Part shown: positions 24,910-25,041 of the stretch, piece by piece
How the letters are laid out: each line of letters opens with the position of its first letter
Numbering within the stretch: position 1 is the first letter of the stretch
Virus record (IMG/VR): IMGVR_UViG_3300025875_000013
Location: 4,583-68,582 of that record
Reading direction: 5' to 3' (one strand)
Origin: a virus
Length of the DNA: 64,000 nt
Notes under the pieces: model-generated
Databases searched by the model: none
What the model was told of the DNA's origin: nothing
Seen by the model: the letters and a program-made list of their open reading frames with translations, nothing else
Translations under genes and position numbers: made by a program

Positions 24910-25041
24910 TTTACGGAGATAATCTAAAAGGGAAATGTTTGCTGCTCTACCAACTGAGCTACCGAACCTGAATTCGGATAGGATTCGAACCTATGACCCG
25001 CCGATTAACAATCGAAGTAACCCTTTTATCGCTACCGTAAA
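24910..25041 (-). ncRNA. YrlA-like Y RNA module X: circularly permuted tRNA-like domain inside a leader/trailer stem
   Basis: Minus strand order: leader TTTACGG, TAAAAGGG, TTACTTCGAT. A hairpin TCGA-TTGTTAA-TCGG (Asn-like GUU loop). Then GGGTC, T-arm ATAGG-TTCGAAT-CCTAT, 3' acceptor CCGAATT, C, A. Then 5' acceptor GGTTCGG (pairs 7/7 with two G-U), TA, and D-arm GCTC-AGTTGGTA-GAGC. Trailer CCCTTTTA then CCGTAAA pairs with the leader. Confidence 0.55.

What the first reader, a model, noticed from the sequence alone, without database searches (positions are those of the whole stretch)
24910..25041. Module X: second permuted tRNA-like unit with Asn-like pseudo-anticodon hairpin
Minus-strand order: hairpin TCGA-TTGTTAA-TCGG (7-nt loop with U33, GUU, A37, A38, like a tRNA-Asn anticodon loop). 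Then GGGTC and T-arm ATAGG-TTCGAAT-CCTAT (5/5). Then 3' acceptor CCGAATT, C, one-nt linker A. Then 5' acceptor GGTTCGG (pairs 7/7 with two G-U), TA, and D-arm GCTC-AGTTGGTA-GAGC. The topology is the same as module Y but the sequences differ, so the permuted arrangement is recurrent rather than a one-off rearrangement scar.
Basis: seen in the sequence. Interest (0 to 1): 0.8.

Follow-up and report, generated by a model that had tools for sequence, protein, structure and literature searches.

The report
Phage Y RNA that mimics tRNA
The "permuted tRNA" is real, but it is a member of a known class: a YrlA-type Y RNA, a tRNA look-alike that partners the Ro60-like protein Rsr, whose gene lies just downstream in this phage genome.

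Summary
It is not a chance pattern and not a rearrangement scar. It is also not a new kind of permuted tRNA gene.

- **Identity.** It is a YrlA-class Y RNA, a known tRNA mimic with a closed acceptor stem. It sits in a cluster: small ORF, X, tRNA-Glu, Y, W, Z, terminator, then rsr (TROVE + Ro60-vWA). The genome is a tailed phage.
- **Model scores.** Rfam YrlA matches X end to end (44.8 bits, E 1e-8), below the gathering score of 69. A model built from 75 relatives, with the window left out, scores X at 120.6 bits.
- **Relatives.** 172 distinct related cores were parsed from viral and bacterial contigs. Of 150 loci, 101 have rsr downstream on the same strand.
- **Added detail.** The "pseudo-anticodon" hairpin is a family feature. 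Its 7-nt loop has the Y32-U33...R37-A38 signature. Two strongly covarying pairs made by the strand leaving the D arm complete a 5-bp anticodon-like stem. The hairpin is therefore not a class-II variable arm, as the literature labels it.

Verdict: new member of a known kind, modest interest.

The parts
24910..25041 (-). Module X: complete YrlA-type Y RNA (132 nt), bounded by the terminal stem strands UUUACGG and CCGUAAA.
   Evidence: Rfam YrlA hit 25024..24912, 44.8 bits, E 1.3e-8. Family model R1 hit 25047..24899, 120.6 bits. Sequence read.
25035..25041 (-). Stem 1, 5' strand UUUACGG. It pairs with CCGUAAA at 24916-24910.
   Evidence: 7/7 complementary. The orthologues in L003/L004 have UUAGUGG/CCACUAA, giving three compensatory changes. 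All 9 stem 1 pairs show double changes in alignment A1.
25029..25036 (-). GGUAGCGA: candidate Rsr-binding motif in the internal loop, a variant of GNCGAAN0-1G / CGAA.
   Evidence: The position and sequence are conserved in relatives (GGUAGCGAAA, GGUGCGMAGG). The motif is defined in Chen 2014 and in the phiLo paper. Binding itself is inferred.
25021..25028 (-). Stem 2, 5' strand UAAAAGGG. It pairs with CCCUUUUA at 24932-24925.
   Evidence: Present in the MFE fold. The family stem 2 is 83.9% paired, and 7 of 8 pairs show compensatory changes.
25014..25021 (-). Conserved GUUACUUC box. It contains the YrlA 'YUAY' motif (UUAC, 25020-25017).
   Evidence: All four units in the window have it. It was the search key that retrieved more than 240 loci. 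YUAY is described in Chen 2014.
25002..25014 (-). Local hairpin: CGA (29-31), loop UUGUUAA (32-38), UCG (39-41).
   Evidence: Read. Family loop composition is Y32 84%, U33 75%, R37 90%, A38 89%. The inner pairs covary.
25000..25001 (-). G42 and C43. They pair in trans with C28' and G27' (24941-24942) and complete a 5-bp composite anticodon-like stem.
   Evidence: 94% and 97% paired in 157 modules, using all four Watson-Crick types; shuffles reach at most 61% and 50%. 96.6% paired on A1.
24995..24999 (-). Five-nt variable loop GGGUC (positions 44-48). C48 can form the Levitt pair with G15.
   Evidence: Family composition is G45 79%, G46 97%, U47 87%, Y48 98%. The 48:15 pair is C:G in 117 and U:A in 46 of 172 cores.
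24978..24994 (-). T arm AUAGG-UUCGAAU-CCUAU.
   Evidence: 5/5 pairs. The family T stem is 99.5% paired with compensatory changes.
24962..24977 (-). Closed acceptor-like stem-loop (AS): CCGAAU-UCAG-GUUCGG.
   Evidence: In the family the AS is 5-9 bp (mostly 6-8), its loops are mostly 3-4 nt, and 33 of 60 four-nt loops are GNRA or UNCG.
24944..24961 (-). UA (positions 8-9) followed by the D arm GCUC-AGUUGGUA-GAGC.
   Evidence: The sequence is invariant in the family, partly because of how the family was selected.
24933..24943 (-). A26, then G27'C28' (the trans pairs), then the 8-nt linker AAACAUUU leading to stem 2.
24917..24924 (-). 3' side of the internal loop, GAUUAUCU, opposite the Rsr motif (family consensus ...UCUC...).
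   Evidence: Conserved in relatives (GAUUUUCUCC, UUGAUCUCGG).
24828..24903 (-). tRNA-Glu(UUC), a genuine tRNA located between X and Y.
   Evidence: ARAGORN. Rfam tRNA, 54.6 bits.
24693..24827 (-). Module Y: a second YrlA-type Y RNA. All five anticodon-stem pairs are made in trans (AUUGU/ACAAU), so it has no anticodon-like loop.
   Evidence: Rfam YrlA 33.2 bits. R1 81 bits. Pairing shown.
24621..24688 (-). Module W: a small YrlB-like Y RNA (UUACAAG...GUUACUUCG...CUUGUAA) without a tRNA-like domain.
   Evidence: z = -2.3. Conserved counterparts occur in L003-L008 and L013.
24488..24618 (-). Module Z: a third, more divergent tRNA-like Y RNA.
   Evidence: R1 hit 24621..24479, 45.9 bits, E 3e-12.
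24447..24478 (-). Terminator-like GC hairpin (GGCGG...CCGCC) followed by a T run, between the Y RNA cluster and rsr.
   Evidence: Read. The consensus scanner missed it. Analogous hairpins precede rsr in relatives.
22994..24421 (-). rsr, the Ro60 orthologue (TROVE + Ro60 vWA). The likely start codon is ATG 24421, although the mechanical ORF begins at 24490.
   Evidence: Pfam TROVE E 3.6e-21. PDB matches: phiLo phage Ro60 9KOP/9L5Y at E 4e-24, plus 2NVO and 1YVP. Relatives align from residue 8-24 of the 498-aa ORF, most from 22-24.
25045..25179 (-). Conserved 44-aa ORF upstream of the Y RNA cluster, ribbon-helix-helix-like by eye.
   Evidence: Translation. Homologous ORFs occur at the same place in L003-L008 and L013. 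No Pfam hit.

Best explanation
Module X is a YrlA-class Y RNA gene of a tailed phage.

**Structure of the RNA (about 132 nt).**
- Its 5' and 3' ends pair to form stems 1 and 2.
- These stems flank an internal loop carrying a GGUAGCGA motif, which is the docking site for the ring-shaped Ro60 orthologue Rsr encoded 0.5 kb downstream.
- The middle of the RNA folds into a tRNA-shaped module: T arm, D arm, Levitt pair, an acceptor-like stem closed by a tetraloop, and an anticodon-arm look-alike.
- The anticodon-arm look-alike is built from two trans pairs plus a local 3-bp hairpin with a 7-nt loop.

**Expression (inferred).** X is probably co-transcribed with the upstream small ORF, tRNA-Glu and the Y RNAs Y, W and Z. 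Excision of the tRNA by RNase P and 3'-end processing would release it.

**Function (by analogy).** The comparison systems are D. radiodurans, Salmonella and Thermus phage phiLo. In those systems the Rsr-bound Y RNA gates the Rsr cavity, and its tRNA-like module tethers Rsr to a host factor, with PNPase the best-documented candidate. During infection this would redirect host RNA decay or repair.

**Shown here:** sequence, conserved secondary structure with covariation, family membership, and linkage to rsr.

**Inferred:** transcription, processing, Rsr binding, the effector, and the biological role.
For: - Rfam YrlA (RF02553) matches X across model positions 1-114 at E 1.3e-8, and matches Y at E 2.9e-5.
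- The next gene on the same strand is TROVE + Ro60-vWA. It is homologous over nearly its full length to solved Ro60/Rsr structures, including a phage Ro60.
- Eleven related viral loci share the same arrangement of Y RNA cluster followed by rsr. X's orthologues there carry compensatory changes in stems 1 and 2.
- 172 distinct related cores were parsed from viral and bacterial contigs. In 101 of 150 loci, rsr lies downstream on the same strand.
- On 75 relatives the proposed structure is 85.7% paired, against 61% for shuffles and at most 47% when partners are slid. The covariation score is 0.61 against 0.18.
- A model built without the window scores X at 120.6 bits over its full length.
- The literature defines YrlA by exactly these features and reports it in 22 phages.
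- A phage Ro60 has been shown to bind upstream-encoded Y-like RNAs and host PNPase.
- The window is a tailed-phage genome: primase/helicase, large terminase, portal and tape measure.
Against: - X scores 44.8 bits, below Rfam's gathering score of 69. However, no module in 18 other family loci reaches it either, so the Rfam model is narrow.
- The published GNCGAAN0-1G / CGAA motif is not matched exactly: X has AGCGAUAA.
- There are no expression, binding or modification data for this phage.
- No PNPase, RtcB or other obvious effector gene turned up among the window ORFs that I scanned, so the effector would have to come from the host.
- A terminator-like hairpin separates the RNAs from rsr, so co-expression is not guaranteed.
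Confidence: 0.88

Rival explanations
1. X is a YrlA that is opened by RNase P at the acceptor-like stem, trimmed and given a CCA end, as shown for M. smegmatis YrlA. That would produce a two-piece RNA with a free tRNA-like 3' end that might be aminoacylated. This is a sub-variant of the best explanation.
For: - X can draw 7 acceptor pairs (6 stable bp plus a tetraloop).
- M. smegmatis YrlA, with a 7-bp AS, is cleaved by RNase P and receives CCA.
- Many family members have a 7-bp AS: 43 of 172.
Against: - AS length varies (mostly 6-8 bp, with 8 the most common), and the loops are often stable GNRA or UNCG tetraloops. This argues that the closed hairpin is the selected form.
- X's orthologues have AS stems of 6 bp and 8 bp.
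- No CCA is encoded, and X's 7th pair cannot form over a 2-nt loop.
Confidence: 0.12
2. X is a true circularly permuted tRNA-Asn gene, like those of Cyanidioschyzon merolae. The transcript would be circularised through its paired ends and re-opened at the acceptor to give a functional tRNA.
For: - The 3'-half-before-5'-half order, and the paired leader and trailer.
- ARAGORN calls the computationally un-permuted X 'tRNA-Asn(gtt)'.
Against: - The ARAGORN test did not discriminate. Shuffled-hairpin controls were called tRNA in 89 of 99 cases.
- The break point lies inside the anticodon stem (between 28' and 29), and the insert is a conserved two-stem module carrying the Rsr motif. It is not a bulge-helix-bulge motif.
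- The triplet is not conserved among orthologues, which have GCU where X has GUU.
- The unit is tightly linked to rsr.
- No splicing-endonuclease system is known in bacteria.
Confidence: 0.02
3. X is an inert remnant of a rearranged or tandem tRNA array, that is, a pseudogene scar.
For: - It lies next to a genuine tRNA-Glu.
- YrlA RNAs are thought to derive from dimeric tRNA transcripts.
Against: - Conservation of sequence and structure across many loci and phyla, with compensatory changes in five helices.
- Three paralogues in the window.
- Consistent linkage to rsr.
Confidence: 0.02
4. X is part of a two-piece (permuted) tmRNA.
For: Permuted ssrA genes also place the T arm and 3' acceptor strand upstream of the 5' acceptor strand (general knowledge).
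Against: - ARAGORN finds no tmRNA, and Rfam finds none at gathering score in the window or at E <= 10 in the region.
- X has a full D arm and no tag reading frame. Only about 40 nt separate the D arm from tRNA-Glu.
Confidence: 0.01

Closest known systems
YrlA Y RNAs of bacteria and phages (S. Typhimurium, M. smegmatis, mycobacteriophages; Chen et al. 2014; Wang et al. 2018; Rfam RF02553)
   Same: - Encoded just upstream of rsr on the same strand.
- The 5' and 3' ends pair into an Rsr-binding stem.
- YUAY motif, near-invariant T and D arms, and the Levitt 15:48 pair.
- Acceptor-like stem closed by a loop.
- A stem-loop upstream of the T arm, called 'V' in the literature.
   Different: - X falls below Rfam's gathering score: 44.8 against 69 bits.
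- The Rsr motif is a variant (AGCGAU).
- In S. Typhimurium YrlA the anticodon-stem equivalent is made entirely in trans and there is no anticodon loop. In X only two pairs are in trans, and a local hairpin supplies three pairs plus a 7-nt anticodon-like loop.
- A genuine tRNA-Glu is embedded in the cluster.
Thermus phage phiLo Ro60 with Yrl1/Yrl2 (NAR 2025, PMC12135203; PDB 9KOP, 9L5Y)
   Same: - A phage-encoded Ro60 with Y-like RNAs directly upstream.
- The window's Rsr is homologous over nearly its whole length, E 4e-24.
- It is an experimentally supported precedent for Rsr-Y RNA-host PNPase complexes.
   Different: - In the passages I read, the phiLo Yrls are described as stem-bulge-stem RNAs with a CGAA motif, and no tRNA-like module is mentioned.
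- The hosts differ.
D. radiodurans Yrn1 / RYPER complex
   Same: A Y RNA that tethers Rsr to PNPase. It has a T-arm-like stem-loop.
   Different: The order of the T-like and D-like elements is opposite. It has no full D arm, and it is considered to have evolved independently.
Circularly permuted tRNA genes (Cyanidioschyzon merolae and other algae; one archaeon)
   Same: The 3' half precedes the 5' half. The acceptor is initially closed, and the leader and trailer pair.
   Different: - Those are matured into working tRNAs through a bulge-helix-bulge motif, a splicing endonuclease and a ligase.
- X carries a conserved Rsr-binding module instead, and no such pathway is known in bacteria or phages.
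Two-piece (permuted) tmRNA
   Same: A tRNA-like domain encoded in permuted order.
   Different: No tag ORF, no match to tmRNA models, and a full D arm.

Membership tests
YrlA Y RNA | Encoded within about 4 kb of a TROVE/Ro60 (rsr) gene, on the same strand. | tested here: met
   X ends at 24910, and rsr (24421..22994) is on the same strand about 0.5 kb downstream. The same linkage holds in 101 of 150 related loci.
YrlA Y RNA | Near-invariant T stem-loop (GGUUCGAnUCC) and D stem-loop (UAGCUCAnnnGGnAGAGC), in the order T then D. | tested here: met
   AUAGG-UUCGAAU-CCUAU at 24994-24978 and UA-GCUC-AGUUGGUA-GAGC at 24961-24944. Both align to the Rfam and family models.
YrlA Y RNA | Acceptor-like stem (AS) between the T and D arms, closed by a loop. 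| tested here: met
   CCGAAU-UCAG-GUUCGG at 24977-24962. The family AS covaries and is usually closed by 3-4-nt loops.
YrlA Y RNA | 5' and 3' ends pair to form the stem that carries the Rsr site. | tested here: met
   UUUACGG/CCGUAAA and UAAAAGGG/CCCUUUUA. Compensatory changes occur in orthologues and across the family.
YrlA Y RNA | GNCGAAN0-1G (CGAA) motif near the 5' end. | tested here: inconclusive
   X has GGUAGCGAUA at the expected place, which is not an exact match. Close orthologues have GGUAGCGAAA, and most family members have GGUGCGMAGG.
YrlA Y RNA | Conserved YUAY upstream of the V region, and a Levitt 15:48 pair. | tested here: met
   UUAC at 25020-25017, and G15 with C48. In the family, 48:15 is C:G in 117 and U:A in 46 of 172 cores.
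YrlA Y RNA | Reaches the curated Rfam RF02553 gathering score (69 bits). | tested here: not met
   44.8 bits, E 1.3e-8, full-length match. No YrlA match reaches the threshold in 18 other rsr-linked family loci, so the threshold reflects a narrow seed and is not grounds for exclusion.
YrlA Y RNA | Bound by Rsr; modified by TruB and DusA; associated with PNPase. | not testable with these tools
   Needs co-immunoprecipitation, modification mapping and pull-downs.
Circularly permuted tRNA gene | The leader and trailer form a bulge-helix-bulge splice motif at the position of an intron, and the product is a mature functional tRNA. | tested here: not met
   The leader and trailer form two conserved stems around the Rsr motif. 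They branch from inside the anticodon stem, between 28' and 29. The triplet is not conserved among orthologues. Maturation itself cannot be tested here.
Two-piece tmRNA | Alanine-type acceptor, a tag reading frame after the 5' acceptor strand, and detection by ARAGORN or Rfam tmRNA models. | tested here: not met
   No tmRNA call. No tag ORF in the roughly 40 nt before tRNA-Glu.

The most novel reading that the evidence does not exclude
In the dominant GUUACUUC subfamily of YrlA RNAs, which includes X, the stem-loop that the literature labels a class-II-like variable arm is really the lower part of a complete anticodon-arm mimic.

- **Structure.** It has a 5-bp composite stem: pairs 27'-43 and 28'-42 are made in trans, and pairs 29-41 to 31-39 are local. 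The 7-nt loop carries the Y32-U33-NNN-R37-A38 signature.
- **Implication.** These Y RNAs would copy all four arms of a tRNA, with the Rsr-binding stems branching out of the anticodon stem.
- **Functional reading.** The loop would be presented to factors that read the anticodon loop, such as t6A or queuosine enzymes, synthetases or anticodon nucleases. A phage YrlA would then act as a whole-tRNA decoy or sensor in RNA damage and repair conflicts.

The structural part is well supported here. The functional part is speculation.
Probability: 0.15. Interest if true: 0.6.

Novelty: new member of a known kind. Interest (0 to 1): 0.3.

Why it matters
**Practical value.**
- This settles a puzzling "permuted tRNA". 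It identifies four unannotated Y RNA genes, including the YrlB-like W, and their Rsr partner in a phage genome.
- Rfam's YrlA threshold misses a very large rsr-linked subfamily. I parsed 172 distinct cores, and copies in cultured Streptomyces phages are unannotated.

**Biological value.**
- It adds to the evidence that phages carry Ro60-Y RNA modules, probably to redirect host RNA decay or repair.

**Structural value.**
- The strongly covarying trans pairs place the conserved hairpin inside the anticodon stem and not in the variable region.
- Most YrlAs may therefore mimic the anticodon arm as well. This is a concrete and cheaply testable refinement of the published model, which describes Salmonella YrlA as lacking an anticodon loop.

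Tried and rejected
- **Default scans.** ARAGORN and Rfam at gathering threshold see only tRNA-Gln and tRNA-Glu. X appears only in the permissive scan.
- **Pattern GTAGCGA-N5-10-GTTACTTC on viral contigs.** Most hits were chance matches inside coding DNA, so I abandoned it for a more specific pattern.
- **Un-permuting modules and running ARAGORN.** 97 of 99 were called tRNA, but reversed and shuffled hairpin controls were called in 97 and 89 of 99. The test says nothing about the anticodon arm and I discarded it.
- **Single-sequence MFE folding of X.** It recovers stems 1 and 2, the T arm and the AS, but mispairs the D arm. It is not reliable for the tRNA core. Z folds no better than shuffles.
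- **Consensus promoter/terminator scan.** Uninformative. It missed the GC hairpin plus T run before rsr.
- **Pfam on the 44-aa upstream ORF and neighbouring ORFs.** No hits. No RtcB or PNPase was found among the window ORFs I scanned.
- **Literature gaps.** The supplementary tables of Chen 2014 and two reviews are not held. I therefore could not check whether X-type sequences were in the published list of 355 YrlAs, or whether the trans pairs were drawn in the figures.
- **Explanations considered and rejected.** Phage attP or tRNA-fragment explanations, and group I intron / permuted intron-exon explanations. The flanks are far too short, and the unit is conserved together with rsr.

Full report
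**1. The observation**

From 5' to 3' the sequence runs:
- UUUACGG
- UAGCGA
- UAAAAGGG
- UUACUU
- CGA-UUGUUAA-UCG
- GC
- GGGUC
- AUAGG-UUCGAAU-CCUAU
- CCGAAU-UCAG-GUUCGG
- UA
- GCUC-AGUUGGUA-GAGC
- A-GC
- AAACAUUU
- CCCUUUUA
- GAUUAUCU
- CCGUAAA

ARAGORN and Rfam at gathering score see only tRNA-Gln (5495-5568) and tRNA-Glu (24903..24828).

Two details need correcting.
- A 7-bp 'acceptor' closed by 2 nt cannot form, so the stem is 6 bp with a UCAG loop.
- The outer pair of the hairpin is replaced by a long-range pair (section 4).

**2. What it is**

- A permissive Rfam scan matches the YrlA (Y RNA-like) model end to end on X (44.8 bits, E 1.3e-8) and on the neighbouring module Y (33.2 bits, E 2.9e-5). 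Both are below the gathering score of 69.
- The next gene on the same strand is a TROVE + Ro60-vWA protein. It is homologous over nearly its whole length to the solved Ro60 of Thermus phage phiLo (E 4e-24), and also matches D. radiodurans Rsr and Xenopus and human Ro60.
- Its real start is probably ATG 24421. Most relatives begin aligning at residues 22-24 of the 498-aa mechanical ORF, and their genes start MSR/MSK.
- The window belongs to a tailed phage, with primase/helicase, large terminase, portal and tape measure genes.
- The locus on the minus strand reads as follows:
  - a small conserved ORF (25179..25045)
  - X
  - tRNA-Glu
  - Y (24827..24693)
  - W (24688..24621, no tRNA-like domain, YrlB-like)
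  - Z (about 24618..24488)
  - a GC hairpin plus T run (24478..24447)
  - rsr

The literature describes exactly this RNA class.
- YrlA RNAs lie within 4 kb of rsr on the same strand in 254 bacteria and 22 phages.
- They have a 5' GNCGAAN0-1G motif, near-invariant T and D stem-loops, a closed 'AS' stem-loop between them, an optional 'V' stem-loop upstream of T, a YUAY motif and a covarying Levitt pair.
- A 2025 study shows that a phage Ro60 binds Y-like RNAs encoded upstream of its gene and forms complexes with host PNPase.

**3. Comparative evidence**

- The Rsr protein retrieved 11 related viral loci at 49-76% identity. All carry GUUACUUC-containing modules upstream of rsr.
- X's orthologues are the third module in L003, L004, L005 and L008. 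Their stem 1 is UUAGUGG/CCACUAA, against UUUACGG/CCGUAAA in X. Their stem 2 is AAUGUGAG/CUCACGUU, against UAAAAGGG/CCCUUUUA in X. These are multiple compensatory changes.
- A pattern linking GUUACUUC to the T loop hit more than 119 viral contigs, and more than 120 bacterial genome contigs from many phyla. From these I parsed 172 distinct tRNA-like cores.
- In 101 of 150 loci an Rsr homologue lies downstream on the same strand.
- No YrlA match in 18 sampled genome loci reaches Rfam's YrlA threshold. The curated model is therefore narrow, and X's sub-threshold score is not evidence against membership.
- On a 75-sequence alignment that excludes the window (A1), the proposed structure is 85.7% paired. 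Shuffles give 61%, and sliding the partners gives at most 47%. The covariation score is 0.61 against 0.18.
- Stem 2, which was not part of any selection criterion, is 84% paired, and 7 of its 8 pairs show double changes.
- A covariance model built from A1 scores X at 120.6 bits (E about 1e-35, full length), Y at 81 bits and Z at 46 bits.
- BLAST also found X-like units, unannotated, inside the tRNA clusters of Streptomyces phages. The family model scores them at 57-65 bits. Related Streptomyces phages and about 140 phage records in all encode Ro-like proteins.

**4. The 'pseudo-anticodon' hairpin**

The published view calls this stem-loop 'V' and likens it to the long variable arm of class II tRNAs. 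The family data point elsewhere.

- The V region is 18-19 nt in 113 of 172 cores, the same size as in X.
- The loop is 7 nt in 82 of 122 modules.
- The table compares the loop composition, in a fixed register, with 861 genuine tRNA anticodon loops from the same loci.

| Position | Y RNA hairpin loop | Genuine tRNA anticodon loops |
|---|---|---|
| Y32 | 84% | 97% |
| U33 | 75% | 95% |
| R37 | 90% | 98% |
| A38 | 89% | 75% |

- The hairpin is followed by a G45-G46-U47-Y48 loop.
- The decisive result concerns the two nucleotides that follow N26 after the D arm. They pair with the two nucleotides just before that 5-nt loop in 94% and 97% of 157 modules, using all four Watson-Crick types. Shuffles reach at most 61% and 50%. 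On A1 these pairs are 96.6% paired, with 45 and 19 double changes.
- The stem is therefore composite. Pairs 27'-43 and 28'-42 are made in trans, pairs 29-41 to 31-39 are local, and a 7-nt loop closes it. The Rsr-binding stems branch off between 28' and 29.
- Because the hairpin lies 5' of nucleotides 42-43, it cannot be a variable arm.
- In X this gives five Watson-Crick pairs: G27'-C43, C28'-G42, C29-G41, G30-C40 and A31-U39. The loop is UUGUUAA.
- Module Y makes all five pairs in trans (AUUGU/ACAAU) and has no loop, like the Salmonella type.
- Genuine tRNAs align locally to the family model across hairpin, variable loop and T arm at 25-32 bits, against about 16 bits for the T arm alone.
- The triplet itself is not conserved. 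GUU is the most common, followed by GCU, UGU, CAU and UUU, and X's orthologues have GCU.

All of this fits the published idea that YrlA derives from a dimeric tRNA transcript. Which helices stack coaxially cannot be decided here.

**5. Is the acceptor opened?**

- M. smegmatis YrlA, with a 7-bp AS, is cut by RNase P and receives CCA.
- In this family the AS is mostly 6-8 bp, and its loops are mostly 3-4 nt. Of 60 four-nt loops, 33 are GNRA or UNCG. The closed hairpin looks like the selected form.
- X has 6 stable pairs and a UCAG loop. Opening remains possible but is not favoured.

**6. Mechanism**

*Shown.* X is a conserved, structured RNA of the YrlA class, linked to rsr.

*Inferred from named precedents.*
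- X is transcribed with its neighbours. The tRNA-Glu 5' end lies 6 nt after X, and its 3' end abuts Y, so tRNA processing would separate the units.
- The terminal stems and the GGUAGCGA motif bind the Rsr ring.
- The tRNA-shaped module recruits a host factor. PNPase is the documented candidate, and an elbow-binding protein has been proposed.
- The complex alters RNA decay or repair during infection.

**7. Verdict**

- The interpretation as a new recurrent 'permuted tRNA' is only partly right. X is a new member of the known YrlA class.
- Its added value is annotational, plus a structural refinement (the composite anticodon-arm mimic) that I did not find in the text of the papers I could read.

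**Caveats**

- The family was collected with a pattern that fixes GUUACUUC and the T loop.
- The sequences are related, and my shuffle controls ignore phylogeny.
- E-values from the home-built model are rough.

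Noticed in passing
window 24488-24618 (-): Module Z is a third tRNA-like Y RNA (R1 45.9 bits). It has a degenerate D arm (GUGGUGUAACGGUAACAC), a 5-bp CUUCG/CGAAG hairpin, and terminal pairing AUUGCG/CGCAAU. It folds no better than shuffles as a single sequence.
   Followed up: partly
window 24621-24688 (-): Module W is a 68-nt Y-like RNA (UUACAAG...GUUACUUCG...CUUGUAA) with no tRNA-like domain. It is probably a YrlB analogue. Conserved counterparts sit between the tRNA-like modules in L003-L008 and L013.
   Followed up: partly
window 25045-25179 (-), and the upstream region to about 25215: A 44-aa ORF (MTRFGFLIEQKWLDKLEEEKEKYGQSTVSSFIRYIIIKFFDKKD) looks like a ribbon-helix-helix protein by eye but has no Pfam hit. 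It is conserved directly upstream of the Y RNA cluster in related loci. It is preceded by TATATTTG (25213-25206), and the same TAnnTTTG box occurs in L003-L013. From memory this resembles the Bacteroidota -7 promoter element, which would suggest a Bacteroidota host.
   Followed up: partly
window 24421-24490 (-): The mechanical rsr ORF starts at 24490, inside module Z and the terminator-like hairpin. The real start is probably ATG 24421 (MSRF...). A GC hairpin plus T run (24478-24447) therefore sits between the Y RNAs and rsr, as it does in relatives.
   Followed up: partly
L001 1461-1608 (-); L002 1463-1605 (-) and 389-536 (-): Streptomyces phages Annadreamy and TunaTartare carry unannotated YrlA-type modules (57-65 bits with R1) inside their annotated tRNA clusters. 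The leader and trailer covary between the two phages (GUUAUCG/CGAUAGC against GUAAUUG/CGAUUAC). A second, more divergent unit follows each one.
   Followed up: partly
18 genome loci (L248-L324), Rfam RF02553: No YrlA match in 18 bacterial loci carrying GUUACUUC modules reaches Rfam's YrlA gathering score, so standard annotation misses this large subfamily.
   Followed up: partly
window 25014-25036 (-); for example L245 7100-7135: The family's 5' region (GGUSCGAAGG, then N6-7, then GUUAYCUUC) is collinear with the 5' end of mammalian Y1 RNA (GGUCCGAAGGUAGUGAGUUAUCUC; sequence verified in PMC4597359). This includes the G-UUAYC at the top of the upper stem. It may reflect deep homology or may be chance. 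The Rfam metazoan Y_RNA model did not hit X at E <= 10.
   Followed up: partly
L009 2600-2930; L010 2590-2930: In the huge-phage relatives (contigs of 436 kb and 195 kb; Rsr 61-62% identical), the space upstream of rsr holds one GUUACUUCG unit plus a roughly 250-nt stretch. That stretch begins AUAGCGAUAGUUUGAGAUACUUCG and has no T/D core. It may be a Y RNA with a different effector domain.
   Followed up: no
window 5495-5568 and 5661-6398; 12717-13457: An HNH endonuclease ORF (HNH_3) lies just downstream of tRNA-Gln, and another follows the large terminase gene. The tRNA-Gln anticodon, variable and T region gives a weak 16-bit hit to the Y RNA family model.
   Followed up: no
window 35889-37851 (-): A PAPS-reductase-domain ORF (35889-36578, E 2e-18) lies next to a 429-aa ORF that has only a sub-threshold RAMP-superfamily hit (E 0.007) and a match to an unknown-function PHROG.
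   Followed up: no
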